A stretch of DNA of 64,000 nt, taken from the NCBI GenBank assembly GCA_977018835.1, contig OZ361261.1, forward strand, positions 1,550,001-1,614,000, written 5' to 3'. Below the pieces are notes generated by a model that saw nothing but the letters and a program-made list of their open reading frames with translations, made no database searches and was not told where the DNA came from. The position numbers and the translations under genes are program-made. Shown here one piece after another: positions 3,382 through 60,322 of the stretch. Position 1 is the first letter of the stretch. Each line of letters starts with the position of its first letter. This DNA is from Minutocellus sp. GHC0000111. Its lineage: Eukaryota.

Positions 3382-4908
3382 ATGGCCATGGCCGTCGAAT
3401 GTAGCACAGCCGGCGCCAGGAGCATGGCAGCAAAGACGGGGGCGCCACGCCGTTCACGGAGAGCATGTCTCATCATCCTCTTTTCATTAGTATCAACAAT
3501 TTCCGCCAAGGGCACATCGTCACATTATCATGGCGTCCACCCGCGAGCATCACGCCAACTTCACGGTGTCATGGCCAGCCAACACGTCCGTCAGCGGCCA
3601 TCGATGACAACATTGAATCTGCTCCGAGGCGGCGGTGTTGGGCGAAGCAGCAAAAATAATGAGGTTGCCGCCAAATCTGCAACTGCAACAGCATCGGCAG
3701 AGCAGGCATCGCAGCCCTCGCTTGTTCCACTCCTCACCTCTACACTGCTACTCATGATCTCCCTATCAATTGTCTCGCTGTCACCCACACCGATACTGAT
3801 CGATCAATTTGGGCCCTCCCGAGCGACCCACATCCTTTCTACAATTGCCGCCGTTGCTGCGGCATCGGAGATAATCCTCAGCCCGATATTGGGAGCGCTG
3901 CTCGACTCCATGGGACGGAAACCGGCGCTGCTGGCCTCCATATCGTCGGTGGCAATCATGCATGCACTGGTATCTACCAACACCAATGCCCTACCTGTGT
4001 GCATTGCGCGGTATTTGTGCTATGTGGCGCTCCCTCAATTCTTCGTGGCGTCGCAGGCTGTGGCGGGAGATGTACTGGCGTCGACGCCCGATAAGATGGG
4101 ATCACTGCTCGGTATTCAGAGCGCGTTAATCAGTGGAGGTTTCATCGGAGGAGTAAAAATCGCTGCACTTCTCGGAGAACGCGGACCAAAGGTTGCATAT
4201 GGCGCATCATCCCTCCTGGCCGTTGTATCAGGCATGATATTAGCGTTCGGTCAAAGAGAAACCTTGGACGAGACACATAAGGTGCCATTTGATGTCAAGG
4301 AGACGAAGCGCAAAGTGATTCAAGCGCCTATTGCTGCAGGACACCTCCTTGTTGGAAGAGGTCGAAAGATTGGCTTACTGGCACTGCTCTTTTCGCTACA
4401 ATCGATGCCTACATTCATTGGTGATGTGTTTCAGGTCTTCTGTCGAGACGTTTGGGGTCTTGGACAAAGTGCTGTTGGCGATGTTATCGCCGTGTTTGGT
4501 CTGTCGGGCATTATTGCCTCAGTTGTTGGAAGCATCCTCGTTGGAAGACTTGGCGTCCAAAATTTTACGTCACTCGCGATTTTATCGTCGTCGTTCTTTC
4601 CCATTGCGGCGATGCGCTCATACAAGGCTTCTCTATTTGCCCTGGCTCTAGGATTTCTTGGTTCTTGTCAAACAATCGGTGTCGTCGCCGAGCTGACTGC
4701 TCAAGTATCCGTATCTGGGGCTCGACAAGGTGAAATTGCCGGTGAACGGGGGGCTCTTCTTGCCATCACAAAGATGGTCGCCCCTCTCATGTACGGAGGC
4801 CTTTACATCGTTGGATCATCGCTGGGTTTCCCACAGCTGATCTTTGCATTCAATATCGTTTTGGCCTTGAGTTGTTTCGTACTTTCTCGTCAGGATGTTT
4901 GGCGATAG
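3382..4908 (+). CDS. Major facilitator superfamily transporter (TetA/DHA1-like)
   Basis: About 12 hydrophobic segments and MFS motif A GALLDSMGRKP; N-terminal signal-like peptide followed by LRGG. Confidence 0.85.
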   Translation: MAMAVECSTAGARSMAAKTGAPRRSRRACLIILFSLVSTISAKGTSSHYHGVHPRASRQLHGVMASQHVRQRPSMTTLNLLRGGGVGRSSKNNEVAAKSATATASAEQASQPSLVPLLTSTLLLMISLSIVSLSPTPILIDQFGPSRATHILSTIAAVAAASEIILSPILGALLDSMGRKPALLASISSVAIMHALVSTNTNALPVCIARYLCYVALPQFFVASQAVAGDVLASTPDKMGSLLGIQSALISGGFIGGVKIAALLGERGPKVAYGASSLLAVVSGMILAFGQRETLDETHKVPFDVKETKRKVIQAPIAAGHLLVGRGRKIGLLALLFSLQSMPTFIGDVFQVFCRDVWGLGQSAVGDVIAVFGLSGIIASVVGSILVGRLGVQNFTSLAILSSSFFPIAAMRSYKASLFALALGFLGSCQTIGVVAELTAQVSVSGARQGEIAGERGALLAITKMVAPLMYGGLYIVGSSLGFPQLIFAFNIVLALSCFVLSRQDVWR

Positions 4909-5043
4909 ATGTTCGCCCCTCTCATGTACGGAGGCCTTTACATCGTTGGATCATCGCTGGGTTTCCCACAGCTGATCTTTGCATTCAATATCGTTTTGGC
5001 CTTGAGTTGTTTCGTACTTTCTCGTCAGGATGTTTGGCGATAG
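4774..5043 (+). repeat. 135-bp tandem duplication of the MFS gene 3' end, including its stop codon
   Basis: 4774-4908 and 4909-5043 are identical except G4777/T4912. Confidence 0.95.
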
Positions 5044-6633: not shown

Positions 6634-8668
6634 ATGAAATCAAGTCTGCTCGCATCTACTTTGGCCACCCTCCTTGCCCTCTTCATTGTTCTGCACCCGT
6701 AATCCGTTGCCGCTGCTACGGCTTCGATTTCACCACCCGAAACTACTACCGATAGAGAACGCAAGCATCTGCGCACTCGAGTTTTCCCTTCCCCGCCGCG
6801 CATTCTTGCCTCAGAGCAGGTGTTGTATTTCAACGACTTTGAGAATCCAAACTCGCCTCTCGCTTACAACGATGGTTGCGGCGGCGTGTACGATTCCAAG
6901 TGGAGACCACTGGAGCGACTCTACAATACTCCTGGGTTTGAATTTAACAACCGACACGCTTTGCTTGGCCTGGCCAAGGTGCCCTCTCCTTACAGAACAA
7001 TGTCTACGCAAATCCCCAGAAAATTGGAGGTCAATATGCTGCTGCAATTAGCAGTTTTGGGGATATCTACCTAACATTTGATGCCATGGGCTTCGACGTT
7101 ATCAATATTGGTATGCATGTTTCTCCAACCGATATGAAAGGTGACGGAGATTGCGCCAGAAATCTTTTGCCAAAACACGACAGCGGAACTGTGCCGAAAA
7201 TCCAGGTAATTCTTTACAATGGTAAAGCGCCCCCCACTCAGGCGGGTTATTTTGACTACCAAAAGCTCGACGAGAAACACATTGAAGGCATATCCTCTAA
7301 AGACTCCTTCACCTTCTCGTGGACATACGTAAGTGTAAGCCTTGATGCTTCATCTGCATCTGATGGCTTTGTGACACTTCGAATAAGGAGCACATCTGAG
7401 GTCTTCGGCCATTACGACGCAATCGATAATCTCAAGATTGTCGGTTCAGACAAACCAATTGCCCTCAGTGCTCCAGTTCCCGATAGCCCACCTACAGGGG
7501 ACGTTGGCAACGGTTACTGCGGACGCCCTTACGAACCAAGCTGTGTTGCATTTCCAGGCATGCCAAATAGGCACATATGTACATTTTGCAGTCCAGACTG
7601 TCCCGGAGAATAAATATACAACGGTAACACAATGACATGGAGAGACCACGCAACTGAAGCCGCCATGGTGTGGGGTTCTTCGCTAGTCGAAGTAACAGAT
7701 CATCATAAAAATAGGTGCGTCAAGGCACTTATGAGGCGATACAACGACGGTCAGGCCTCAGGATCGTATCTAGGAGGCAAGGGGCGGGATGGCTACTACC
7801 ACTGGAGAAACGCTGGTCGAATTCCTCTCATCGGCCAAAGTGGATATCAGAACTGGGTTCAGTCTCCTCAGCAACCTGATTGCTACTATAGCAACTGCCT
7901 TCCCACTGACAGGGACCAGTGTCTCTGGGTTTGGTGGGAAGGTCAGTGGGATGACACTGATTGCAACAGCGAGCACTTTGGCATTTATGTTAGGAGTCCA
8001 CCGAGCAATGGGCAGCAGCCGCAGCCTCAGCCTCAGCCCCAGCCCCAGCCATACCCTCAACCTCAACCCACTATTTCGTTTACGAAACTCAAGAAAACTG
8101 CATGCGGCTTCGACGGTACCGCCAAAGAAGATCGTGAATATGGACGCTGGGAAGGTATGAGTAGATCTGAATGCGAAGAAAAGTGCCTCAAGAAGATCAA
8201 GAACGGTAAGATGTGCTTCGGCTACGACTACAACGAGCAGAAGGATAAGCGGTGCCGTGTCTTCTACGTTTACCCATTCGACCAGAAATCCCACGATGAA
8301 GTAGATTGCTGGCTTGCAACCGGTACATCTAGTATCACCTATCCAACTCCAAGTGGTTCTGTGAATAAAGCCGACGACTCTCCTTATGATAAGCACGCGC
8401 CAGAACAGCCTACAATTTCGTTTACCAAACTCAAGAAAACTGCTTGCGGCTTCGACGGTACTGCTAAAGAAGATATCGCGAATACGGGCGCTGGGAAGGT
8501 ATTAGCAGGTCAGATTGCGAAGAAAAGTGCCTCAAGAAGATTAAAAATGGCAAGAAATGCTTCGGCTACGACTACAATGAGCAGAAGGACAGGCGCTGCA
8601 GGGTGTTTTATGAGTATCCATTTGACCAGAAGTCTCACGATGAAGTAGATTGCTGGCTGACTGATTGA
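6634..8668 (+). pseudogene. Secreted multidomain lectin-like protein: signal peptide, beta-rich domain, C-type lectin domain, (QP)n linker, two PAN/apple-like Cys domains
   Basis: MKSSLLASTLATLLALFIVLHP followed by an in-frame TAA; frameshift near 6990; in-frame TAA at 7611-7613; CTLD motifs YLGG..W..YQNW..QPD..C..WDDTDC; the second PAN-like copy is frameshifted near 8474. Confidence 0.75.
8064..8659 (+). repeat. Two diverged ~250-bp direct repeats encoding the PAN-like domains (8064-8315 and 8406-8659)
   Basis: QPTISFTKLKKTACGFDGTAKED...HDEVDCWL occurs twice with mostly synonymous differences. Confidence 0.9.
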
Positions 8669-13746: not shown

Positions 13747-16111
13747 TCACTCATGCCCACAGATCGATCGACCCTTACCTCTCATTTCTTCCTGATAATC
13801 GAAGATATCGCGAGTGCTGCGCTCAGGGATACCGATGCTGCGATCTCCGGAACCTAACGTATTCATTTCGGCAGTTCCTCCCTCGCTGACGATATCATCA
13901 TTCGCTCTGGCTCTTCTTTCCATGACTCGGTCAACAAATAGAACAACGCCAATCCCCAATAAGAAGCAAATGGATCCAATGACGGCCCAGATGGCATTCG
14001 ATGATGTTGTAGGAGCTACCAGCGACCTTGGTGAAGCATTTATCGGGGCACCCATTCTTGATTCTACAGGAGAAAGGTCATTTTCGGAGTCACCGCTGCC
14101 GAAGAGGTTGCTCACACTTGAAACGAAGCTGTCCGTGATGCTCTGGCTACTAGAACTACTTCTCTCGGCAGTGCCAAATAAGCTGACCCCGGTGTCCGTT
14201 GAATCCAATCCGCCTCCACCGACGCATCCGTCGTGCTCTGCAAAACCAATGCGTCCCTCATCTACATCGAAGAGAATCTCATGGCCCTGGAAGATGTTGG
14301 ATCCCAGACGACTGATCCCAGAAGGGTCCACGATGCTCACAAAGAACTTTATGCTGAAACGGTCGGTGTCGTGGTCATATTTTAGGTAGTGAGAGGGAGG
14401 AATAGCAATCACTGCATCAAATGGATGGTGAGTGTCGAGATTGCGATAGGCAGCCAAACCGGGTATTGTTGATGGGTCGACTCCAGTTTGTTCGGCATTA
14501 TCAGCTTCAAGCTGAAGCAGCACCGTGGGTAACGTACGGACTTCCTCGTTTGTAAGCTCCATGCCTAGATAGCTAAACTTTTGCCCGGACATATCTTCAA
14601 ATGCGCCAATAAAGTCCTTTTCCAGGGCACGGTCGAAGTACGTGTAGGAAAGTTCCGTGTCGACTGACACGCCGGGTAGACTTCCGTTGACACCTCCATT
14701 TATTCGATCGTAGTCGACTTGATCAAGTGCATAGACGGTAGCATCTTCGCCGTAGTCATTGCCGATGGAAGCCAGGGACGGAACAGGCCCATCGCCGATA
14801 GAGGCTGCACTCTCGATGTCACCTTGTCGGAGGTAGACTTTGCGAAGGCGGACGGCGTAGCTCGCTGTGGTAGTTGTTTCTTTATTGTTTTGAATTTCCT
14901 TTTTCAAGGCAGAATTCCGAGCAAACACGAGAGGGGTGATATGATGCGCTCGGTTGACATCACCCAAAGATACGACGTTGTCATTTCTCCCCACTCGACC
15001 ATCAACGATATCATTTGCTTCCCTTTCCTCGTCGCTTAGTACTACCCCAAAGCTCATCTTATCGAAACACAGTCCAAATCGACGATTAGATATGATTCCC
15101 TCCTCAACCAAAATACCAAGGAACGACGTTGGTGCTGCACTCATGCCCACCAGCCCCGCACCCCTCCATCGGGCGTCGTCCTTCTCATCACCATCTCCAT
15201 CGACATCACCGTATGCACCCAGGTTTTGGGCCGCAAATCCCTCGGCCTGAGAGAGGCAGTCAATGGCAAGAGGCAAGAGGCAAGGTCACACTGTCCTTTT
15301 TTCCTACTTTGCGTGTAGTTGAGCGGCTGTTAAACTGTTGTCAGCCTGATTGAAGAGTAGAGTTGCGATGTCCGTGACTGCCATGGCAGTGTAGGTACCA
15401 TCCTGGACAAATCCCAACTCATTGGTGATGGTCGAGCCAATCGTTGAGGTGGAAAGGCACATGCCGCCGGTGTTGGCACCACACTGATATTGGTGTAATG
15501 GATGCAGGGATGATGGACAGGTCGAGCATTCGGTGAATACGGCAGTGTCGCTGGCAGCTGGATCGTAGCACGCGCGCAAATCATCCACATCATCAATCTT
15601 GCCGGCAAAGTCGGCATCAGTGGCCTCGGGACATGCGTTGCATCCGTTGCATCTCGCGCATGGGAGGAGGAGGGGGACATCCAGACCAGTGCTGATAGCA
15701 AAGGTGTGAGGAGATTGGTTCGAGCCAAGCAAAAGCTCGAGGGTGTGTCTGTCGATGAGGAGTAGATGTAACGATGTTGCCGATTGTGGGTGCTTCGGTG
15801 TCTTCATCATCGTCGGCAAGGATTCTACCCTTGCTCTTCTTCCCCCTTTGCAGTCGCTTTGTAGTAGATTGTTTCATTGTAGTAGCGCTAGCGGAGAGTT
15901 CGCGAATGATCCCACCGTCCGAAGATGACCCAGCGAAGAGAAGATACGCTCCGACCAGGCAAGTGCTCCCCGCGATTATGGCCACATCCCGTCTCATACG
16001 CCTCTGCCGTCGTGACTGTTGTTGTCTTTTTCTCTCGCCACTAGATCTACAAGCAGCATTCTGGGATCTGGCCGAAAAGAACGGTGACTTCTTCATCTTG
16101 TCGCCATGCAT
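13747..16111 (-). pseudogene. Membrane-anchored A1 (pepsin/plasmepsin V-like) aspartic protease homologue with degenerate catalytic motifs; frameshifted
   Basis: TLELLLGSNQSPHTFAISTG..PC (DTG is STG), RRFGLCF, YAVRLRKVYL, VSVDTELSYTYF (DSG is DTE), LGSNIFQGHEILFDVDEGRIGFA..C and a C-terminal TM. Frame break near 15745; stops and a 7-nt duplication at 15270-15306. Confidence 0.7.
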
Positions 16112-16679
16112 ATCTTGTGCTTGTTTGTTCGGGAGAGATTGTGAAAGCAAGATATCGAGTGCAGATAGATTACTCCTGTTCTAATGAGCTATTGCTGCCA
16201 ATCGTTGGGTATCAACGAGGATGCAATGTATTGTCGCTACGTACAAGATAGACGTTATCTGAGTGGCGGCTTTGAAGGCAGGGTGGGTCATGGTGCCTTG
16301 CGTTGGCATTTTATGGGAAAAGTTGGCATGTGGATCAGTCATTCACGGTCATGTGGATCATGACACGTCACACAGAAGCTCACAACCTCTACAATCTTCA
16401 CAAAGCATGGCAGGCTTGCTCACAATGAAAATTGTTGGTTTCCGAATGATGATTGTGGAGGACCCACAACCCGTTCGTCCAACGCACGCCCAACGCATGC
16501 CCCCACTCCTCTCACTTCCGCTCCGTCGGAGCCATGGGACTCCCTCCTCCACACCTCATCTTCCTGAGGACAACCACCAATCAAACCTCCCATGTCCTTT
16601 GCATGTTGGTCTGAGCAACGTGTCTTGCGCTCTGCTGATCAAGCAAAGCCCACCACCCAAAGGCAGCACACACGTCGCC

Positions 16680-18180
16680 GAGTTGGTCCCACTTTAGGTG
16701 AGGCGCTTCAGGACGTTGGAGACTTTGCTAACTTCGCTCGCGTTGTCGGACGACGGAAAGACCGACGTCCGTCCATTTTTTCTCCCGAACGAAGCTCATC
16801 ATGGTGACCCCCGCTCCTGGCCGCTGCGCGTTTGCAAGGCAAGACATGGGCGAGTTGGTCCAGCTTCAGGTGAGCCGCTCGACCCAAAAGCTGGACGCTC
16901 GTCTTTCCGTCGTCCGCGTTTCCAACGCGGCGAAGCACGGGAAAAGTCGCAACTTCCTGCCGGACCAACTTTTCCCCCTGAAGCATGGCAAAAAGACTTG
17001 GTCGAGCCGGCCTGCCTCGCTTGCGTCCCCACTCCAGACACGTTCAAGGTTGGGGACGTCGAAGGTCCGGCTCGAAAGCTCCGCACACAGGCTGAGCTGT
17101 CGAGGGGGAAGAGTCACGCACAAAAAGCGACAACGACGCACGAAGACTTGCTCTCGTTGGCGGCCGACTCGGGGGCGGATGCGAACAAAAACCACAACAA
17201 CCAACCATGCAAGCACTTTCGTGCATGTGTCTTGGGCGTGTGTCTCTGCACTTCTGGGTGGGTTGGGCGGCTGTGGCTCTCACGGCGCCACTTCTCATCC
17301 GCGGCCCTTTTTCGCGAGCTCGAACGCAGGTTGGTTGTTTTGACTCACGTCTTCTCATGCAACAGCGCCAACCAAGCTGAAGCTTTTGCACGCGCAGCGC
17401 AGTGGTGTCGGCCAGCCTCGGGAGTGCCCACGTCTTGCCTTGCGAGCGTGCAGCTAGCAGCGGCCAGGAGCGGGGGCCACCATGGTGAGCTTCGCTCGGG
17501 AGAGAAAGTGGAGGGACGTCGGCCTCTCCGTCGTCCGACAACGCAAGCGAAGCCAGCAAAGTCTCCAACGTCCTGAAGTGCCTCACCTAAAGTGGGACCA
17601 ACTCGGGCACTCCCGAGGCTGGCCGACACCACTGCGCTGCGCGTGCGAGAGCTTCAGCTTGGTTGGCGCGCTGTTGCACGAGAGAGCACAAGCCAAAGCA
17701 ACCAACCTGTGCTCGAGCGCGCGAAAAAGGGCCGCGGATGAGAGGTGGCGCCGTGAGAGCCACAGCCGCCCAGCCCACCCAGAGGTGCAGAGACACACGC
17801 CCAAGACGCGTGTGAGAGCGCTTGCGTGGTTGGCTGTTGTGGTCTTCGTTCGCACCCGCCCCCGAGTCGGCCGCCAATGAGAGCAAGCTCTCGTGCGTCG
17901 TCGTCGCTTTTTGTGCGTGACCTCTCCCCCTCGACAGCTCAGCCTGCGCGGAGCTTTCGAGCCGGACCTTCGACGTCCCCAACCTTGAGCGCGTCCAGAG
18001 TGGGGGCGCAAGCGAGGCAGGCCGGCTCGACCAAGTCTCTTTGCCACGCTTCAGGGGGAAAAGTTGGTCCGGCAGGAAGCTGCGACTTTTCCCACGCTTC
18101 GCCGCGCTGGAGGCGCGGACGACGGAGAGGCGAGCGTCCAGCTTTTGGGTCGAGCGGCTCACCTGAAGCTGGACCAACTC
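16680..18180. repeat. Interleaved inverted repeats A-B-A'-B' with GAGTTGGTCC termini
   Basis: A 16680-16851 pairs with A' 17426-17604; B 16852-17429 pairs with B' 17605-18180. Both A and B begin GAGTTGGTCC..TT(T/C)AGGTGAG. Confidence 0.9.
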
Positions 18181-19085
18181 CGCCCTGACTTGTCGCTGAG
18201 TGGACTGTTTGAGGAGGAAGTTGAAAGAGGGGCTGCCAAGAAAGCGGTCACTCCACGCTGGGTTGGTGGGTGGGGGCAGCCTGCTTGCCCAGCCACCCAC
18301 GACTGCGCAAGAGCGACTTTGCCAGCGCGCAGACAACCCTGGAAGGCACCACCACCTCCTCGCCGCACCAAGAAGGACAAGTGGATCCAAGACTGACTTC
18401 AATGGCTTCGTCAACAGCCTGGACTGTCCCAAGTCGGTCAAGGCTGCGCGCGCTCGGGGGTCAGAGAGAGAGAGCCAAAGAAGCGCCAACGCGAGCCAAC
18501 AGCTGAAGGCGAAGAGCGCTTCGACTGCGAGGCTCGTGGTGACGTGGACGACGAGACAAGGGGCACTCTCACCCTGGCAAAAACCAACGCCCAGGGAAGC
18601 GATCCAGAGCTCAACGTTGATGACTTCAAGTTTGGTCGGGGCCTGACTTGCGACTGGGGAGCAAGAGCTTTCCCAGAGAGGGACGAAGTGCCAGAAGGTG
18701 GCACCTGGCTGCAGGACCAGAGAAGCAAGCAAAGGACAGCAACCAGTGGGAGCCACTCACCACTCAAGTTGACGGGGAGCACGTGAAAGTTGATGTGTCA
18801 ATGGTGAAAGGAGACCAACAAGAAGCGCTCCTCACCGTGATGAGCAAAGTCAAAGAGTGGGTGGAGCGTGCAACATCAGCTGACCCAAACAAGGCACGGA
18901 CGTTCAAGCCACTCTGCCTGACAGTGCAGGGGTGTGCCGGGTCTGGGAAAAGCTTCTTTGCAAAGTGCCTGGTCAACACAGTGAGAGAGATGTTTGGCTG
19001 TGAAAACGTTGCACGTGTGGTGGGACCAACAGGAGCAGCAGCCTGGTCAGTTGGAGGTCAAGCAGCGCGCCGCAAGCTTGCAGCT
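18181..19085 (+). pseudogene. Fragment of a PIF1-family helicase, probably Helitron-derived
   Basis: PLCLTVQGCAGSGKSF (Walker A) and VVGPTGAAAWSVGGQAAR (motif Ia/Ib; consensus APTGxAA..GGxTIH). Upstream frames are broken, and the fragment is truncated before motif II. Confidence 0.8.
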
Positions 19086-19839
19086 AGCCCACGCTCTCCC
19101 TCACTGAGCCCCAGCCTGCTTGCCACGCTGTTGGCCCATCGCATTGCCCACCCTCTCTCTGATTCATCCAGCCCATGTCTTTTTTGTTTGAGGGCGCTCA
19201 CCCACCAATTTGCCCACGTCCTTTGCACGTTGGTCTGAGGCACAAAACGTCCCACCAAAGTGCGCCTGGTCCGTCTGTGCCCGCTCCTCCCACCCAGCTC
19301 AACCTTGGAAACGGGCAGGGCAATCTTCCATCTGACTTTGTTTTGAGCAGCAGGGACCTTGGTCGCCTCAACCCTGGCCTCTCTGAGTCTTGCAACTTCA
19401 ATTTTTTTTGCAAGCGTCTCCTTCCCATTTTCAAGGCTCACTGTCACCGTCGTCGCAGCAGCCCCTTGTTTGCTTCTTCACATGTGTGTCAAGCTCTGCA
19501 GAGAGCAAAAAACAAATGGTCAGAAACACCACGCCATCAATCCCCCAGACTTGTGCGCCAATTTGGGAGCTTTGGCAGCACCTCTCAAATGGACTCCTGT
19601 TCGAGTGGCCAAGACTGCAGTCAGAGCGCTTTCACGAAGAGCGCTTTGGGCTTTTCTGAGCTCTCCCCTGTGCAATTGGTCAGGCAGTCATGCCAAGAGA
19701 AGATGGAAGAAAGGCAATCCTTCCCAGCCAAGTGTCTGCTGTGCTGGCAATTGAGTCTGATCCAAGTCGGTCTCACGCTGGACACTTTCACAACCACTTT
19801 GCATCAGCTCTTGGTCACTCTGCAAACGTGACACAGCAA

Positions 19840-22620
19840 TTGATTGGCAGTTGAAGTCTCTGGTGAACGTGCTGAAGTTGGTGGAGTCTAACTTTGGAAA
19901 GCCCACAGGAGGCACACCACTTGATGATGCAGAGCGCTCACTGGAGCTTCTTCATCAGGAACTGATCACGTTGGAGCTTCTTGTGTCTGGGAGCGGCAAC
20001 CTCCAGGACAAGCCCACGCAGCAGGTCAGGGAGCATTGGGAGATGCTCAAGTGTGCCTGTCAAGTTGAGCTTGGCTGGCGGCCATTCCAAGAGGACAGGC
20101 TTGATGGGCAGATGGAACACAAGATGCACCTCTTTCCAGATGCAATTGGAGGAGTTGTTCGATTTGACCGATTGCTTCCACGTTGCGTTGGAGACCCTTG
20201 CGATGCAACTAGTGGAGAAGAGAGAGTGGTGATGAAAGTGTTGCGTCTGCACACCCTTCTGCAAGCAGTGAACAGATCTGCACGTTTCATTCATTTTTTT
20301 CAGTGACATCTTGTTCTAGTCCATTGTTGCACTCCTGCACAGTTTCTGCAAACTCTCCTCCATCACTTTCTGTGTCTTCCAATGGGTGGGGCACAGTCTC
20401 CTCAGGATCTGGGCAGGGCACAGTTTCCTCAGAGTCATCACTGCCACATCCTTCAAAATTGCTTTCCACCTCTCCATCACTTCCATTCTCTCCATCCCCA
20501 TTTCCTCCCTGGTGGTCCTCAATTGCTTCCACTGGAGGAGCCACAACATGAGGGGTGTGCTGACTGACTGACAAGATCCCACCCTTCATTGTGCAAGCTG
20601 TCCAGGCCATGCATTTCATTCCATGCCACTCTGGCTGCTGCCTTTAAGAAACCACAGTGTGGTGTGAGAGTGATGGTGCCTCTCATGGACTCTCCAATTT
20701 TGCTAGCCATGTCACACATTTCCTTCAAGCTGCACTCTCTCTTCTCCAAGTTCAGAGTGCGGAGTCCTCCACACATGACCAGAGCTGTGGTGATCCTTTC
20801 TGCATGGGAAAGAAATGTCCTTCTGTCCTGTAGAGTCCTCCCTTCAAAGCTGGTGGCATGGCAATGACAGCACACAGTGTCAAAGTCTTCTCCAATCTTC
20901 ATGTGCTGGTTGTGGCTCCAGCCCCGGCAACAGCAATGAGAGAAGGCATGCCATTCGTTCTGCACAAGGTCATGGTGGCCTTCTCCAATGTGCTCCTCAA
21001 CTAGTCTCTCTCAAAGGCACGCCTAAGAGAACCCTCCCTCAAGGCCTTGGGGAAGATGAGGCAGAACTCACCAGAGGAAATGTCCATGAGCCCATCCACG
21101 ATGTTCCTGTTGTCCCTGCTGAGCCACCAAGTCATGTGCCTTCCAAGCCCTCTCATGATCCACTCTCTCAGTCCCTCAGGATTTGTCCTGAGCACACAGA
21201 AGGCAAATTGATCTGTTGCATAATTCAAATTAATGACAATCTCACACCTGCCAACCAAGTTGCCTGAGGGGTTGGGAGTTGACTTCTTCTGCTGAGGGGA
21301 AAGGGAGCTTCTCTCAAGGAAGAGTGGAGCTGTGTTGCTCCCTGAGCAGCAAAAACATGGACTGAGACCCAGGTGCCAGATCTTAGCAACATTGTTTGCA
21401 AGTCAACTTTAGTTTTCAATGACACTCAAATTGCATTGAGGGACCACATGCATTTGGGATCCTCGATGTCAGATCCAGTGAACATGTCATGAAGAGGAGT
21501 TGGCAGGTTCCAGAAGGGATCAAAAGACTTGCCCTCAGTCTCTTCCGAGAAACTCACGTCACAAAAATCCACCAACGCATGTGTTGAAATGAACATGCAT
21601 GTGTCTCAATGCCCCCTCCCCTCCAATGGGGAAGGGAGTCATGCCACCAGAAAGAGGCGATGCACACCATTCGGCACTCATTCTCGTCCTGAAATGATCA
21701 TTGACACAGTCCTGCTGCAAAACACTGGCTAGATGATGAAAGAGAGACCAATTGTCTGTGCTCATGTGCTGCTGAACAGACAAGGCAGACACCATTCTTG
21801 GCTGGGAAGGACAGTCAGATCCTGTTGGTTGGTCATCTTCATTTTGTAGAGACAGAGCTCCTTGGCCAGAGTGGGCGACGTTGTCCTTCATGTTGGCTGC
21901 CAAGCCATCTTTCAAGCCACATTTCTCGCGCCAACCACTGCGCTCTGGGCCATTGGATTGATGGCAGAGGCATCCACCTTGCCAGCACCATGGGAGGCAG
22001 AGACAGCAGACAGTGCTTGAAAAGCAGAGTCATCACCTGTTGCAGAGGCACCATGCTTAGCTGCTTCAATTGCAGCCATGTGGTCGTGAGGAACGAACTG
22101 CTGCCCTGGCCATGGAGCCAGTGCAACAACTAGCAGCTGCAGCCTTGGCCTGAGACAAACTTTGCTTCATCGTCTCCTTGCCCTTGAAATCTAAAGGCAT
22201 GTCACCAGGAATCACCATGGAGCGTTGTTTGGTCCTCTTGGATGGACCACAGTTGTCAGTCCAGGATGAGGGAGCACTTGCACTGGATGTTGCCTGAGCT
22301 TGGGAAGAGGCATGAGCGCTGATCGATCTGCTGCCGGAGCTTGATGAGTGGACAGGTTGGGAGGTGCTGGGATTGCCTGCCACAGGAGCAGGGACAGTGA
22401 GGCGGAAACCCACAGCTAAAGGGTGGCCCACGTTGAGAGAAAGAGGGAGGACAGTTTGGAAGATTTGTGGCCTGGATGGATTGGCCATGCCAAGAGAGGA
22501 GCTCAACGCTTGACAAGATCAGCTGCCTTTTTGGCAACCTCCTCAGCGTCAGCCTTGGACGCACAGATGAGTCACCTGGCTGCTTTTGCCCATTGCTTTG
22601 GTTGGACACAACTCCTGGAA
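19840..22620 (-). pseudogene. Degraded coding sequence of unknown function inside the TIR element
   Basis: Chain of overlapping minus-strand ORFs (22609 to 19938) with an acidic tract and almost no Tyr; no recognisable domain. Confidence 0.35.
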
Positions 22621-23556
22621 CAGTGCAGGGATGGGCAAAGCGATGGCCAATTGCATGGAAGCAGGCAGGCTGGGATGACGCGTGCTGCCTTTGGATGGTG
22701 GGCTTTGCTTGATCAATCGTCAGCAGAGCGCAGGGTGCGTCGCTCGCTCAATCAAGTGTGCAAAGGACATGGGCAATTTGGTTGGTGGGCGTCCTCAGGA
22801 AGATGAGATGTGGGCTGGATGGATCAGAGAGAGGATGGGCAACGCGATGGGCCAACAGCAGGGCAAGCAGGCTCTGGGACGACGCGCGCGCTGCCTTTGG
22901 ATGGTGGTGGGCCTTGCTTGTTGATCAGCAGAGCGCAAAAGATGTGTCGCTCAGTCAGACCAACATGCAAAGGACATGGGAGGTTTGATTGGTGGTTGTG
23001 TCCTCAGGAAGATGAGACATGGAGGAGGGAGTCCCATGGCTCCGACGGAGCGGAAGTGAGGAGTGGGCGTGCGTTGGGCGTGTGTTGGACGAACGGGTTG
23101 TGGGTCCTCCACAATCATCTTTTGGTCATTCGGAAACCAACAATTTTCATTGTGAGCAAGCCTGCCAGCCATGCTTTATGTCGCTGTGAGTCACAGAGAG
23201 TCACAGCGAACGTTGCCGCCCACAGGCTCGTCACAAGCAAACGAACAATTTTCATTGTGACAAGCCTGCCATGCTTTGTGAAGATTGTAGAGGTTGTGAG
23301 CTTCTGTGTGACGTGTCTTGATCCACATGACCCCAAGACTGAAATGACTGATCCACATGCCAACTTTTCCCGCTTTTTATTGTGCCACGATGACTACGTA
23401 CGACGAACGACGTACGTACGATCGTTCAGCAAAATCGCTCATTTCTCGAGTGGCACGATGATGATACTCGTAAGCAGAAGGCGCAAGTCAGCTCGCAAGC
23501 TTGCCGCCGCTGAATAATACCGCACAACGCAACGTAGGAACTGGTGGGCGCGCACC

Positions 23557-25345
23557 ATGCCGCAAAAGTTCCGGACGGACACCACGTCCTCCAAACGACA
23601 GGCCAAGTACCAGTACAGTCCCTACGAGCCGGCGTCGGGTTCGGCATCGGTCAAGTCGCATTACAGCGGTCCATCGGGACCGGCCTCCGTATCCAATGGC
23701 GGGCCACAGCATCCCCAGGCATTGCGAAAGGGCGGTGTGCCCGGCGGATCTCCTCCCAACGCATCCAACAGTGCGACAAGGTCGGCCTCCAGCAGCGGCA
23801 GCAGCGGCGCCGGCAATCGAGCCCTGACCCTGCTCGTCGTCCTAGGTGGCATGCTCTACCTGTTATTGCAGCTCATTGCCCTTCGGCAGTCGGAATTTCG
23901 CTACTCCGTGGCGGAATCACGCTTCATCGCCTCCCATCGGCACGGCCATGCTGGCGGCGGCGGCGGTGGGCTCCACTCCCACCGCAAGATCCACGATCAC
24001 AACCTGCACGTCGAAGATGGCACGGGCAACGTCGACGTCCTCGTCGATGGGGCCGTGTCGAACATGGACCTGGGGAACACCTACGGCAACGCCGCCGGTG
24101 GGCACGAGGGGAGGGGCGAGCTGCGCGTCAGATTGCCCAATGGGAGGGGGGAGATGCTGCGGCCGGCGCCGCACTTGGCTCTCAATGTCGGTGGGGAGGC
24201 ATGGGACGAGGATCGACGGAGGGATCACGACAACAACAATAACGAGAATGGTGGGTTGAGGGGTAATGACGGGGATGGCGATGGCGATGGGGATGGGGAT
24301 GGATGGGAGCCCGAACCACCGCCCGATGAAGCCATAATATTAGACGGCGAGGGAGGCGATGGCACCGAGGGCGGTGGTGCCCCGTTGAATGCCGATGCCG
24401 CCATTGCCCGGTCCAAGCAGTCGCAGAGAGATGCCGATCGGGAGAAACACAATACCAACGGCCGGCGCAAACGCAAGGGGGGTGGGGGAGACGCGGCAGG
24501 CGGTGATGGACGACTCAAGAAGGTCCGGGCCGAGGCCATGGGGCACTTCAAGGCGCACGAGGTCGACGCCGACGTCAATCGGCCCGCTTCCCTCACCGAC
24601 CTGGTTCACAAGATGATGCCAGATAATTTAGAATATGCATCGGATGTGTCGACGAGGCCGGACCCGGAAAATCCCGACGTGCCAATTTACTGGGACATAC
24701 CCGCGAGCGGATCGGACCTGATGGCAACGATTGCCAAGGAATGTCTCCATTTGGGCACGGTCACCAATTTGCAACGTGCCAAGGAGGGGTGGGGACCTAA
24801 CGCCGGACATATGGAACGCAATCGATTACTTGGATGGGATCAATCACGGGCGATTGTTTGGGCTGTTCCTCCACCCTGTTCATCGGGCAGTCCGGATGTT
24901 GGCCGAGCAGAAGGAAGAGGATCCTGTGGGCATTGGGCGATTAGGGACGCTCGAGGAATATGCGCGGAGTAAGTACCACGAGCCCAACTGGATGGTAAGG
25001 CATCTGGCCGGAGTCCCAAGCAGTGATAAACCGACGGCCAATGATCTGGCCGTCGCCAAGGAAGTAATGAGGACGAAATTTATCGTTGGGATTCTACCAT
25101 ATAATGACGGATCATTGAAGAGATTTGAAGAATATTTCGGTTGGATTTATCCAGCAAAGGGAGGTGTGCAGTGTCGACAAAGAGCAATTGCCGATGCCAC
25201 TGCGGCCGAAAAGAGCAATGTGAAGGAGGGCAGTCCTGGTTGGGTCGCTTTATCCAAGGCTAATGACTTGGACATTAAGCTCTACGAGTATGCCAATCAC
25301 TTGTTCTTTGCTCAAAAGGATATGTTTGACCGAGGCAATACATAG
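23557..25345 (+). CDS. Type II membrane sulfotransferase-like protein (diatom-expanded family); frameshift near 24790
   Basis: TM LTLLVVLGGMLYLLLQLIAL, then PIYWDIPASGS, GRLFGLFLHPVHRAV, NWMVRHL, KFIVGI, SLKRFEEYFGW and NDLDIKLYEYA, split over two frames at a G-rich run. Confidence 0.72.
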
Positions 25346-46477: not shown

Positions 46478-47527
46478 TTGGAGGAGGAGCGGCTGCTGCA
46501 GGATCTGGCCGAGCAGGCGGAGGGCATGGTTCCCATGCCATGCGTCTACGAGGTGGCAGCATCGTGGTTACCAGATCACATATTTGAGTACTGCAAGCTC
46601 CGCACTCATGCTCAGCTTTAAATGAAGGCTACTAACATAAAGAAATGGAGCAGAACCGGACTGCTGAACACATGCTTTGAGCTGGACATGAGATTGAAAG
46701 GTCCCTCTCTCTCGTGACTTTATTTTGCATTCGTTCGCTTTCAAGGAATTCCTCCGGGTTATTTTGGTCATAATAATAATTTTTTGCCGCCATGTCGCCA
46801 TGTCGCAACAGCAACAAACGGCACAAAAAGGCACATGCTGATGCCAAGCCCTCCATGCTCCTACGTAGCTACGCTGGAAACAGAATAAAACTCACTGTCT
46901 TGTGCTAGTAATAAAATCATGCACACTCAACCTCAGAAAACCACCGACATACCAACCGATAGAGCACTCTGAGAGGGTTCTCCTGATGCATTTTGAGCCG
47001 ACGATGCAATCAATCGAGTTGGTGACAGCAATTAGTTGCCTTGAACATGACCCTTTTTCGCTAACTTCGCCTGCGTGAAAAATGGCCACGTCACGGAGAA
47101 AGCGAACATAAAATTTATCAGGTTGGAGAAAATTTTATGTTTCAGAAAATTGGCGAGAAAAAAAGACACTAACAACCGCCTAGTAAAAAAAAACAGAAAA
47201 AAGGTTAATTGCCCCACCAAGGCAGACAGAGCAATTCTGGAAAAACTTTACTATGAATTGTTTTCTTAAGGAACAGTCCTGTCGTTGCGACAAGAAAAAA
47301 ATCGTTTCTTTGCCGATTTCGAAAAAATACCCCCCCCCAAAAAGACCGCTTTCCGGCCATTTCCAGACTTTGTCGCAACGACCAATCGAAAGAACGCATG
47401 AATTTACCTGGGGTAACTCTGTTCGACGACTTGTGCCGTATCTCTAACCGTTCGGGGGGCAAAGAGGGTGTCCCACCTCGTCAGTTTCATTCTCGTTCCA
47501 GCGTAGCTACGTAGCAACCAAACAGAC

Positions 47528-50458: not shown

Positions 50459-50805
50459 GTTCGAGATCGTAGGGTTTGTGAACGCGAATCTCGTGTTTTA
50501 TTTTTGGAGTTTTGTTCTGCATACTGATGCTTGGGTGACCTTTTCGAGAAGATGAGGCCAATGATAAGAGGAAGTGGGATGACAAAAAGTGATCAATTCG
50601 GCGAAGTTTTCCGTGGATCTATCTCTATAAAAAGCCTGAGCACGCGTTGAATGCGTGTGTAGTGCTGATGCGGTGGTGCTAGTGGCTAACGCACACTCAG
50701 GGGGTGGGTTCCCATCTGCGCGCAGAAAAGCGAGCCTTGTTTCGGCACACGTAAAAAGGCCGAGTGAAGAGTTTTGCGCAACAGCAGATGGCCCGGGCGC
50801 CCCGA

Positions 50806-51003
50806 TGAGATTAATGCGATCAGAAAATTATTTTTAAAGAAAAGCATGTCAGTCAAGGGTCGGTTGGAGGAGGAAGAAGGAGCTCTGACTTCAGTTAGGA
50901 GCAAGCAGTGAGATTAAGCGATCAGAAAATTTAAAGAAAAGCGTGTCAAGGGTTGTTGTTGGTTGGAGGAAGGAGCTCTGACTTCAGTTAGGAGGAGTGA
51001 GCA
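50806..51003 (+). repeat. Diverged ~100-bp tandem duplication
   Basis: TGAGATTAA(T)GCGATCAGAAAATT...GAAGGAGCTCTGACTTCAGTTAGGAG occurs twice. Confidence 0.85.
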
Positions 51004-51633
51004 GGTGTGTAGATAGAGACAAGGAGGTCTCTCACAATTCTGCCGCCAACAACCAAGAGAGCTAACCTTGATTGAGAGAGCAAGCCGCCAAGTTACAGGC
51101 CCACTTTTGATTGCCCCACTTCACAGTGTGCTCAAGCAGTCACCACACTAGCCTTGTGGGCCTGTGTCTGCAACACACTTTTGTTCACACATGTGCGTGC
51201 CTCTCACACACACTCTGTGGAGAGATGAGGTGGTCTGGCTTCTGCTTGGGAAAATGCACTGCACTTCGTGCTAGTCTGTTTGTGTCTCTTCTTGTGTGTT
51301 TGAAGTGTTGTCTTTTCTTTGGCGCGACTAGGGAGGACAAGAGAGAGGCCAGCAGCAAGTTGCGTGCGCGAGCGAGCCGAGAAAATTCGCAGCAAGCCAG
51401 CCGCGAAGGCGAGCACAACGTGTGCGCGCATGCATGCCTGCAAAAATTTTGTGTTGCTGTCACCATGGGAAAAAGCACGCCTCGCCAAAATCGAGTGACA
51501 TGTGAATGTTCGTCGACCTATAAAATTATAACTAAAAAAAACACACGACCTCTTATTGCTAGATTGGCCACGCCCACCCTCCAAGTGGCGACGTGCTAGT
51601 GGCATGCCTTAGAGGGCGCCCGGGCCCATCTGC

Positions 51634-58599: not shown

Positions 58600-59400
58600 G
58601 TTGGCTAGGGGTCGCCGATTAGAGGGTGCCCCCCCAGCACCCCCCAATTTTCGAGCTCGGAGGCCAAAAGGATCCGGAGGTGTTGACCATCAAAGACGTG
58701 ACTGAGGCCAGGATTTGCTGGCTGACCAGGTCAGTTGAAGCAGACACACACACGCTTTGTCAGAACTGATGAGTGAGAGTCAGCGATGGCGATTCATCTC
58801 GTTCTCGGCTTTTGCCGCCTGTGAAACATCGCGCGCATGTGCTCGTTTCTCATCAATGTCGAGCTCCGTTAGCGAAAAAGTCTTTCTCTGCTCTCTCTTT
58901 TCGCGCGTGCGTCACGACACCTGTGCTGCCTTGACACCTTCTTAGTGTCCTTCGCAGACGCCACGTTGCTACATGTAGCAGCAGTGCGTTCTGCACAGAA
59001 AAAAGAGCTCGTGTTCACACAGAGCCGACACGCACACTTCCCAGAAAAAATGGACGAGTGTCGGTCTTTCCATGCGCCGTCCGACAACGAGAGCGAAGTT
59101 AGTGAAAATCCGAATGTTTTGCTGAGTGGCTCACCTCTAAAATGGGACCAACTCAAGGAGGAGCTGCTGACATGTTTTTGTTTTTCACTCAACTGACGAC
59201 TTCAACTGCAACAACGGGCGAAAAGCAACTAACGCAATTTAAACATGCATGTAACACTAAAGTGCTGTCATGAAACCAACCACCAAAATGCTGCACCCGG
59301 GACCGAGTTTTTCTTTTGTGTGCTTTGCTTGCTTTGTGGCCTCTGACTCATTGCCCTGTCCCGCTTGGTCGTGCCTGCCGTGGTCGTGAAGAAAACCTGC
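58600..59400. mobile_element. TA-depleted repeat remnant sharing the GAGTTGGTCC terminal motif
   Basis: 59130-59154 reverse-complements to GAGTTGGTCCCATTTTAGAGGTGAG, similar to the termini at 16680 and 16852. Surviving TA are mostly TTAG/CTAA/CTAG. Confidence 0.55.
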
Positions 59401-60322
59401 GCATGCAAGAAAGAAGAGCCAGACTTGGCAATAAAAGTCACATTTTAACCCATATGTCAGAGTTTCATGTTTCATGTTTGTCCTACTAACTACAGAGTTT
59501 CATGTTTCATGTTTGTCCTACGAGCTACTAGTAGTCACAGTGTCAGAACAATGGGGTCTCGAAAATGTCTCATTTCTGCCAAGCATCGCATTTTGTTGTC
59601 CCACCTTTCTGCATCATCATGACGACACGTCTGGAGAAACAACTTCAAGTTACTTTAATGGCATAAATGTTTGTGTCAATAAATGTGTATTTCCTTTTTG
59701 GAAGGCCACTCTATACAGCCACATCTCGTGAGTTTCTTGCTTCTCGTTCTCCAATGTTTCATCTCCTCCCCAGTGTGGCTCCCGCCGGCCGTTTCTCAAC
59801 TCTCTCTCAGGCCTCAAGTCACACAACTGCACAGTAGCACAGTAGCGGCGTTCATTTTTAACATTTGCTCAAGGTGAGCACGATGGCCGAGCTCTTGCAA
59901 GCGGAGTACATATGTTCGCTGGGCTAGGGGACACACACATTTGCATCTGTGGAGGAGCCCGGTCCCTTTCGCGAATGGAAAGTTTCCTTTTCTTTTTATT
60001 CAGCACATGAAAGCAACTTGGTAGAATTTGGTGATCGAGGCAGTTGTGGGGACAAAATCGCAGTTCATCTTCAACTGCCCCGGGAGAAGAAGAAGAATAT
60101 TCGATTAGCTGTTGCATTTCACACCTTAGCATACTGCTGCCTTTGATGATCTGATCTCATCATTTGGCTTCGTCTCCTCTTTTATTGTCTTCGACTTTTC
60201 CTCATAGGCATCGATCTCAACGTCGCTCGTTGGCCCTCCGCACACAACAAACTTCGCGAGGTCTTTTCCCATACACAATTAAACACCACCACCACTTCCT
60301 CCCAGTAATAATACCACACACC

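What the first reader, a model, noticed from the sequence alone, without database searches (positions are those of the whole stretch)
18181..19085. PIF1/Helitron helicase fossil gives the direction of mutation (AT->GC)
Seen: motif Ib reads GGA GGT CAA GCA GCG CGC (GGQAAR). Established: the PIF1 consensus is GGxTIH. Inference: ACA->GCA, ATA->GCG and CAC->CGC need only A->G/T->C changes. The upstream QPACPATHDCARATL also looks like a Tyr/Val-containing motif turned to Cys/Ala. This is internal evidence that A:T pairs were the ones lost, and in contexts beyond TA.
Basis: partly seen in the sequence, partly recalled or inferred. Interest (0 to 1): 0.75.

Follow-up and report, generated by a model that had tools for sequence, protein, structure and literature searches.

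The report
Context-specific A-to-G hypermutation of diatom transposons
A broken piece of a jumping-gene helicase in a likely diatom genome differs from its intact sister copies almost only by A-to-G and T-to-C changes, mostly at adenines followed by C or T, which likely marks a host enzyme that edits transposon DNA in place.

Summary
Confirmed, with one correction. 18181-19103 is an internal piece of a Helitron PIF1 helicase gene inside a 7-kb, almost TA-free transposon nest (16315-23371) in a probable diatom. Intact homologues read GGQT(M/L)H and QPTYPVTHDYARMTL, so the ancestral residue is Met, not Ile; none reads A/A/R. Against high-depth intact contigs of one run, 75 of 78 differences are A:T to G:C in the window, with no transversions; outgroups confirm the direction (79 vs 15; control lineage 18 vs 28). 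Both strands are hit alike, with no sign of selection. Only 15 of 60 mapped changes are at TpA. The rule is adenine before a pyrimidine (51/164 vs 9/216), strongest at TAY (11/13). It predicts which TAs survive: 20 of 26 are YTAR (flanks 15%). Dose depends on position: the two arms of one split MITE differ. Closest known: TpA-only hypermutation of viral DNA in Bigelowiella natans. This scan has noted TpA erasure in other diatom genomes before; the non-TpA context, 3'-pyrimidine rule and gradient appeared in none of the notes or papers I saw. A TadA/ADAT-like DNA adenine deaminase is the likeliest cause, but no enzyme was seen.

The parts
16315..23371 (.). Outer element with long terminal inverted repeats (GGG...CCC termini) and a 9-bp flanking duplication with 1 mismatch; Mutator-like by anatomy (label recalled, no transposase found). 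The whole element is TA-depleted.
   Evidence: rho TA 0.00-0.26 per segment vs 0.59-0.65 in the flanks
16315..16679 (+). Left terminal inverted repeat; pairs with 22880-23371
16680..18180 (-). Older copy of a ~750-bp high-copy MITE (GAG...CTC termini, apparent 4-bp duplication), split by the nested copy into a lightly hit short arm (16680-16851) and a heavily hit long arm (17609-18180)
   Evidence: many different junctions at 18180 and high contig depth
16852..17604 (+). Nested second copy of the same MITE in the opposite orientation, with a 4-bp target duplication; makes a ~580-bp inverted repeat with the long arm
18181..19103 (+). Internal fragment of a Helitron RepHel helicase exon (linker, Walker A, motifs Ia and Ib), hypermutated A:T to G:C, with five 2-4 nt insertions that read as tandem duplications
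18277..18321 (+). QPACPATHDCARATL, from ancestral QPTYPVTHDYARMTL
   Evidence: loose end
19053..19070 (+). Motif GGQAAR, from ancestral GGQTMH (four A:T to G:C changes)
20395..21392 (-). Decayed ORF of unknown family inside the outer element; in its main block 6 of 6 aligned Tyr of each homologue are His or Cys in the window; strong CpG loss, little AT loss
22880..23371 (-). Right terminal inverted repeat

Best explanation
This Helitron helicase fragment and the transposon DNA around it have had adenines on both strands turned into guanines, mainly where a pyrimidine follows and most of all in TAY, likely in place in the chromosome and likely by a host DNA adenine deaminase of the TadA/ADAT kind aimed at silenced repeat loci. 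Shown: the direction, the transition-only spectrum, strand symmetry, the context ranking (TAY > other ApY and TAR >> other ApR), no sign of selection, and a dose that depends on position and peaks near 17400-18640. Inferred: adenine is deaminated to hypoxanthine and copied as G; TpA is exhausted first and ApT/ApC are hit where the dose is high; targeting follows the locus (chromatin state or the nested inverted repeat), not the family sequence, because the high-depth sister sequence is intact. CpG loss in 20300-22600 is likely a separate 5-methylcytosine decay.
For: Run X3: 75 of 78 places have G/C in the window and A/T in high-depth contigs, 3 the reverse, 0 transversions; X7 48 of 51; X11 61 of 65; one search adds 25 of 25. 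A/T sites changed 60/380, G/C sites 2/377, both of these at CpG (p=8e-17). Three-way polarity with relatives L001 and L004: window-private 79 AT>GC, 15 GC>AT, 14 transversions; L001-private control 18, 28, 16. Strands: A 40/239, T 20/141 (p=0.56). Nonsynonymous 43/60, the neutral expectation (p=0.78). Context: 3' pyrimidine 51/164 vs purine 9/216 (p=5e-13); TAY 11/13, TAR 4/14, non-T ApY 40/151, non-T ApR 5/202. 13 of 13 ancestral TpA and 22 of 31 ApT are lost. Independent repeat in the MITE copies against L002: TAY 38/54, non-T ApY 81/244, TAR 9/36, non-T ApR 30/330. Surviving TA in the island: 20 of 26 YTAR and 0 RTAY, against 301 of 2069 YTAR in the flanks (p=3e-12) and 67 of 294 in intact relatives. 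Gradient: the G/C state lies in the older MITE copy at 40 of 50 transitions in its long arm but at 3 of 15 in its short arm (p=4e-5). An engineered TadA variant shows YAY > YAR (PMC12528748, passages).
Against: No enzyme was seen: no genome is held for this window. The 5' ranking is T > A >= C > G (AAY 16/42, CAY 17/60, GAY 7/49), not the YA preference of the engineered TadA variants. B. natans hypermutation is strictly TpA, so this may be two overlaid processes. The reference is a high-depth contig path, not a single ancestor: L001 supports its state at 48 of 60 sites, has the window's state at 8 and another base at 4. One upstream Tyr is already Cys in that path (loose ends), so TpA hits may be undercounted. 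It is one locus, and the gradient rests on one nest. The five small insertions are not explained by deamination, and sister copies with little A-to-G load carry small insertions too.
Confidence: 0.55

Rival explanations
1. Same footprint, but thymine is the damaged base: a T-modifying enzyme (TET/JBP-type oxidation to hydroxymethyl- or formyluracil, recalled chemistry) marks repeats, and the modified T pairs with G, giving T to C after a purine (RT, best in RTA).
For: Sequence alone cannot tell A-to-G from T-to-C on the other strand (strand symmetry). The spectrum is transition-only. Transposon-linked TET/JBP genes are reported in fungi (PMC12730594, search listing and start of abstract only).
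Against: I have no evidence for such a base in diatoms. The TAY > TAR ranking has a direct parallel in a TadA-derived DNA deaminase.
Confidence: 0.14
2. An error-prone repair polymerase (Y-family, T:G misinsertion) fills gaps at nicked, silenced repeats, giving A:T to G:C changes and short tandem duplications together.
For: Five 2-4 nt insertions that read as tandem duplications in 923 nt, and a local dose gradient. Small tandem duplications are linked to repair of DNA breaks (PMC8355091, search listing and start of abstract only).
Against: 0 transversions among 78 places in X3. Adenine before a purine is nearly spared, whereas the recalled Pol eta hotspot includes AA with many transversions. 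Sister copies have insertions without the substitution load.
Confidence: 0.12
3. Two overlaid processes: a B. natans-type TpA-only editor over the whole island, plus a separate ApT/ApC-directed process (for example deamination of methylated adenine at ApT) near the inverted repeat.
For: TA loss covers the whole island, while AT loss is confined to about 16700-19600 (rho AT 0.12-0.24 in the core, 0.86-1.05 in 20301-23371).
Against: The 3'-pyrimidine rule holds for both classes: TAY > TAR, non-T ApY > ApR, and YTAR survivors across the whole island, also where AT is intact. ApC is hit as well (16/92). One enzyme at different doses is simpler.
Confidence: 0.13
4. No special mutator: the direction is reversed (sister copies decayed by C to T), or GC-biased gene conversion, or an assembly artefact.
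For: Many derived states lie in CpG (48 CG vs 32 in L001); 8 of 60 sites share the window's state with L001.
Against: The A/T states encode conserved residues (Tyr, Met, His, Ile) in relatives 68-86% identical. The control lineage shows no such bias. Gene conversion would not spare transversions or follow an ApY rule. The allele is read exactly in four runs of three studies.
Confidence: 0.04

Closest known systems
TpA hypermutation of integrated NCLDV and virophage DNA in Bigelowiella natans (bioRxiv 10.64898/2026.01.13.699255; parts 1-3 of 5 read plus term search, supplements closed)
   Same: Nearly exclusive A:T to G:C transitions on both strands, local to invading DNA, TpA loss; an ADAT2-like deaminase is proposed there without test.
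   Different: There all such mutations fall on TpA and the measured targets are viral; here 45 of 60 are outside TpA, a 3'-pyrimidine rule applies, the targets are DNA transposons in a probable diatom, and the dose is graded. The main text does not contain 'diatom', 'stramenopile' or 'pyrimidine'; its mutation table, which I could not see, may hold a 3' bias.
TadA-derived adenine base editors ABE3.1 and ABE8e-YA (PMC12528748, passages)
   Same: A-to-G on DNA with a YAY > YAR ranking.
   Different: Engineered and Cas9-guided; here AAY is hit at least as often as CAY, and no enzyme is identified.
Fungal repeat-induced point mutation (RIP; features recalled and as summarised in the B. natans preprint)
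   Same: Heritable, transition-only, context-specific mutation of repeats.
   Different: Opposite direction (C to T). Here the high-depth sister sequence is intact, so repetition alone does not seem to be the trigger.
Helitron RepHel (PF14214 Helitron_like_N + PF05970 PIF1)
   Same: The fragment is 86% identical to a PIF1 protein whose more distant relatives carry the Rep domain upstream.
   Different: Only 923 nt of the helicase exon are present; no Rep domain and no element ends.

Membership tests
Helitron RepHel | PIF1-family helicase domain | tested here: met
   12 homologues of the window piece carry PF05970; 4 of 4 rescanned pass the Pfam cut-off. The mutated piece alone did not hit PF05970.
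Helitron RepHel | Rep (Helitron_like_N) domain upstream of the helicase | tested here: met
   Met for relatives only: 3 of 3 loci with upstream DNA that were scanned (L007-L009, 38-51% identical to P0002) carry PF14214 and DUF6570. Absent from the window.
Helitron RepHel | Element termini and 3' hairpin | not tested
   The window holds an internal fragment only; no full element was retrieved.
B. natans-type TpA hypermutation | Almost only A:T to G:C transitions | tested here: met
   75 of 78 places in X3; 60 of 62 mapped sites.
B. natans-type TpA hypermutation | Both strands (TpA to TpG and to CpA) | tested here: met
   TA became TG 8 times, CA 4 times, CG once.
B. natans-type TpA hypermutation | Restricted to TpA | tested here: not met
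   45 of 60 changes are outside TpA; 38 of these 45 are backed by at least one outgroup.
B. natans-type TpA hypermutation | Confined to foreign or repeated DNA, genes spared | tested here: met
   By composition only: rho TA 0.00-0.26 in the island, 0.59-0.65 in the gene-rich flanks.
B. natans-type TpA hypermutation | About 1000-fold raised de novo rate, active in only some lines | not testable with these tools
   Needs mutation-accumulation lines.
TadA/ADAT-type DNA adenine deamination | YAY > YAR context ranking | tested here: inconclusive
   The 3' part is met (TAY 11/13 vs TAR 4/14; YTAR survivors); the 5' part is met for T but not for C (CAY 17/60 vs AAY 16/42).
TadA/ADAT-type DNA adenine deamination | A deaminase gene and DNA inosine | not testable with these tools
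   No genome is held for this window.
Fungal RIP | C:G to T:A transitions | tested here: not met
   2 of 377 G/C sites changed, both at CpG.
Mutator-like element (outer element) | Long TIRs with a 9-bp target duplication | tested here: met
   the duplication has one mismatch. The family label is recalled.
Mutator-like element (outer element) | MULE transposase | tested here: inconclusive
   No Pfam hit for 7 interior ORF pieces or for the 2 intact homologues of the interior ORF.

The most novel reading that the evidence does not exclude
Diatoms carry a natural genomic adenine base editor: a host DNA deaminase recruited to silenced or inverted-repeat loci, which spreads along the chromosome with a falling dose and rewrites adenines before pyrimidines (TAY first) on both strands. 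TpA erasure in diatoms and in Bigelowiella would be the low-dose face of one SAR-wide defence.
Probability: 0.4. Interest if true: 0.88.

Novelty: new variant of a known kind. Interest (0 to 1): 0.66.

Why it matters
It gives a polarised, site-by-site target code for an A-to-G genome-rewriting process reported in print, as far as my searches reached, only as TpA-specific in one rhizarian alga. The code (ApY, TAY first, YTAR spared) can be tested at once on any algal assembly by counting surviving TA contexts, and against candidate enzymes in vitro. It would also narrow the search for a natural DNA adenine deaminase. It means that transposon ages and GC content in diatoms can be distorted by locus-specific mutation that runs against the usual GC-to-AT drift.

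Tried and rejected
No whole genome is held, so there was no genome-wide spectrum and no deaminase search. Pfam on the mutated piece gave only weak AAA hits. Rfam found nothing in 16000-23600. RNA editing with reverse transcription was rejected: both strands are hit alike and three unrelated DNA elements share the signature. Damage to a Helitron single-stranded intermediate was rejected for the same reason. Age as the cause of uneven load was rejected because the two arms of one MITE copy differ. The idea that sister copies show an early TpA-first stage was tested at protein level and not supported: 25 of 26 conserved Tyr positions are kept across 8 close proteins. Linking the small insertions to the editor is unsupported, since 6 of those 8 proteins carry small insertions, some at frameshifts and possibly sequencing errors. 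The RNA runs were contigs and do not show transcription. In one search the MITE ends were cut a few bases off; searches use corrected ends. Literature searches for a diatom report found none relevant: 0 papers; 0; 19 of 22 listed, none on this by title or abstract start; 1, unrelated; 2: the B. natans preprint and a Rhizoctonia paper, listing only. Scan notes: none for this genome, none by sequence, none for 'beyond TpA' words.

Full report
Observation. The stretch lies in an island of near-total TA loss from about 16400 to 23170, with sharp edges. The window's allele is real: pieces of it lie with no differences in four of four runs laid, from three studies. One of these runs may be the window's source.

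What the piece is. The 104-residue helicase part found 12 other proteins, 68-87% identical, all annotated PF05970, and four of four rescanned pass the PIF1 cut-off. Three more distant loci with upstream DNA (L007-L009) carry Helitron_like_N and DUF6570 before the helicase, so this is a Helitron RepHel family. The window has only 18181-19103, an internal piece with frameshifts; intact contigs leave it at both ends and continue in the helicase frame. A host HSF gene has a 59%-identical homologue whose cluster holds a protein of the diatom Arcocellulus cornucervis, so the host is probably a diatom. That rests on one gene.

Anatomy. An outer element at 16315-23371 has long inverted ends and a 9-bp flanking duplication with one mismatch; 'Mutator-like' is a recalled label and no transposase was found. 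Inside its left end sit a ~750-bp MITE (16680-18180) split by a second, inverted copy (16852-17604), then the Helitron piece. The outer element resumes at 19110 and carries a decayed unnamed ORF at 20395-21392.

Direction. 10 of 12 homologues read T-M-H or T-L-H at the motif, two are frameshifted there, and none reads A-A-R; the upstream motif is QPTYPVTHDYARMTL. The ancestral middle codon is ATG, not ATA. In run X3, contigs at depth 459-739 (the window's own allele is at 84-89) differ at 78 places over 18100-19300: 48 G to A and 27 C to T from window to contig, 3 the reverse, and no transversion. X7 gives 48 of 51 and X11 61 of 65; X1 shows 5 places, 4 in that direction. Independently of copy number, sites where L001 and L004 agree against the window are 79 AT>GC, 15 GC>AT and 14 transversions, while the same count for L001 as control is 18, 28 and 16. 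Changes private to each MITE copy against L002 are 18 vs 4 and 33 vs 1, plus one transversion.

Site table. I mapped 62 places inside the piece: 37 of the 40 rows shown (3 rows lay in the MITE; 40 more were not shown) and 25 of 25. I left out 18181-18199, 18272-18380 and 19074-19103, where the tables were incomplete; up to three places inside the counted ranges may be unlisted. A/T sites changed at 60 of 380 and G/C sites at 2 of 377, both at CpG. The strands are alike (40/239 and 20/141). 43 of 60 changes are nonsynonymous, as expected without selection. L001 supports the contig state at 48 of 60 sites, shares the window's state at 8 and has another base at 4.

Context. All 13 ancestral TpA and 22 of 31 ApT are gone, but only 15 of 60 changed adenines follow a T; 38 of the other 45 are backed by an outgroup. 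The main rule is the 3' base: 51/164 before a pyrimidine and 9/216 before a purine. TAY is 11/13, TAR 4/14, other ApY 40/151 and other ApR 5/202. The MITE copies repeat this against L002: 38/54, 9/36, 81/244 and 30/330 (L002 is another organism, so some of these differences are ordinary divergence). The rule makes a prediction that needs no alignment: a TA should survive when both of its adenines are followed by a purine (YTAR). 20 of the 26 surviving TAs in the island are YTAR and none is RTAY, against 301 of 2069 YTAR in the flanks and 67 of 294 in intact relatives. Transitions do not change purine or pyrimidine class, so the process cannot create this pattern by altering neighbours.

Dose. 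TA loss spans the island, whereas AT loss peaks at about 17500-18500. The older MITE copy holds the G/C state at 40 of 50 transitions in its long arm but at 3 of 15 in its short arm. Non-TpA hits fall from 27/156 to 18/197 along the Helitron piece (p=0.025). Position, not age, sets the load. The high-depth sister sequence is intact, and close sister proteins keep 25 of 26 conserved Tyr positions, so the process does not hit every copy of a family.

Mechanism. Shown: a heritable, strand-symmetric, transition-only A:T to G:C process that is local to a transposon nest, follows an ApY code and is graded in space. Inferred: a host DNA adenine deaminase of the TadA/ADAT kind acting in place (0.55). 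An engineered TadA variant has a YAY > YAR ranking (PMC12528748, passages), and an ADAT2-like candidate was proposed for B. natans. Against this, AAY is hit at least as often as CAY and no enzyme could be sought. The rivals are thymine oxidation, an error-prone polymerase (which would also explain the five short insertions) and two overlaid processes. Reversed direction, gene conversion and artefact are ruled unlikely.

Comparison and novelty. The closest system is TpA-only hypermutation of viral DNA in Bigelowiella natans (bioRxiv 10.64898/2026.01.13.699255; parts 1-3 of 5 read; term search; supplements closed and may hold the 3' context). This case works like it but fails its TpA-only feature, so I do not file it as a plain member. 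Searches for a diatom report found none; the library lacks most subscription papers. Four notes of this scan describe TpA erasure in other diatom-like genomes. I saw only their short summaries, did not check them and do not count them as support; the first led me to the preprint. None of those summaries mentions non-TpA targets, a 3' rule or a gradient. Verdict: a real feature and a new variant of a known kind, interest 0.66, limited by being one locus with no enzyme in hand.

Noticed in passing
window 50660-51330 and 58600-59450: Two smaller TA-poor stretches whose surviving TAs are mostly YTAR (12 of 18 and 10 of 14, no RTAY; ranges picked by eye). The second holds a remnant of the same MITE end at 59043-59154.
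   Followed up: partly
window 18332, 18373, 18391, 18456, 18719: Five 2-4 nt insertions that read as tandem duplications; none of the 12 of 14 indel rows shown is a deletion in the window against X3. Small insertions also mark the right terminal repeat and sister helicase proteins P0016-P0021. Cause unexplained.
   Followed up: partly
L002 2095-2790: A metagenome contig carries the same MITE family inserted in the same Helitron helicase gene at another place, not TA-depleted (25 TA in 750 nt); this MITE may favour that Helitron as a target.
   Followed up: partly
window 20301-22600: Strong CpG loss (rho 0.07-0.29) together with TA loss but little AT loss; consistent with CG methylation of diatom transposons (PMC9998398, passages).
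   Followed up: partly
window 16676-19110: The MITE pair and the Helitron piece sit inside the left sub-terminal repeat of the outer element, whose sequence resumes at 19110 (loose ends): a captured gene fragment in a TIR element.
   Followed up: partly
window 20395-21392 (-): Decayed ORF of an unnamed family (P0045, P0046, about 60% identical; no Pfam hit) with a Cys-rich block.
   Followed up: partly
window 8064-8658 and 4772-5041: Tandem duplications (342-344 nt spacing, 84-90% identical; 135 nt x2, 99%) inside ORFs, not TA-depleted.
   Followed up: no
window 46861-47514: 35-nt inverted repeat pair, 584 nt apart, that keeps TA-rich ends; a possible small element not hit by the process.
   Followed up: no
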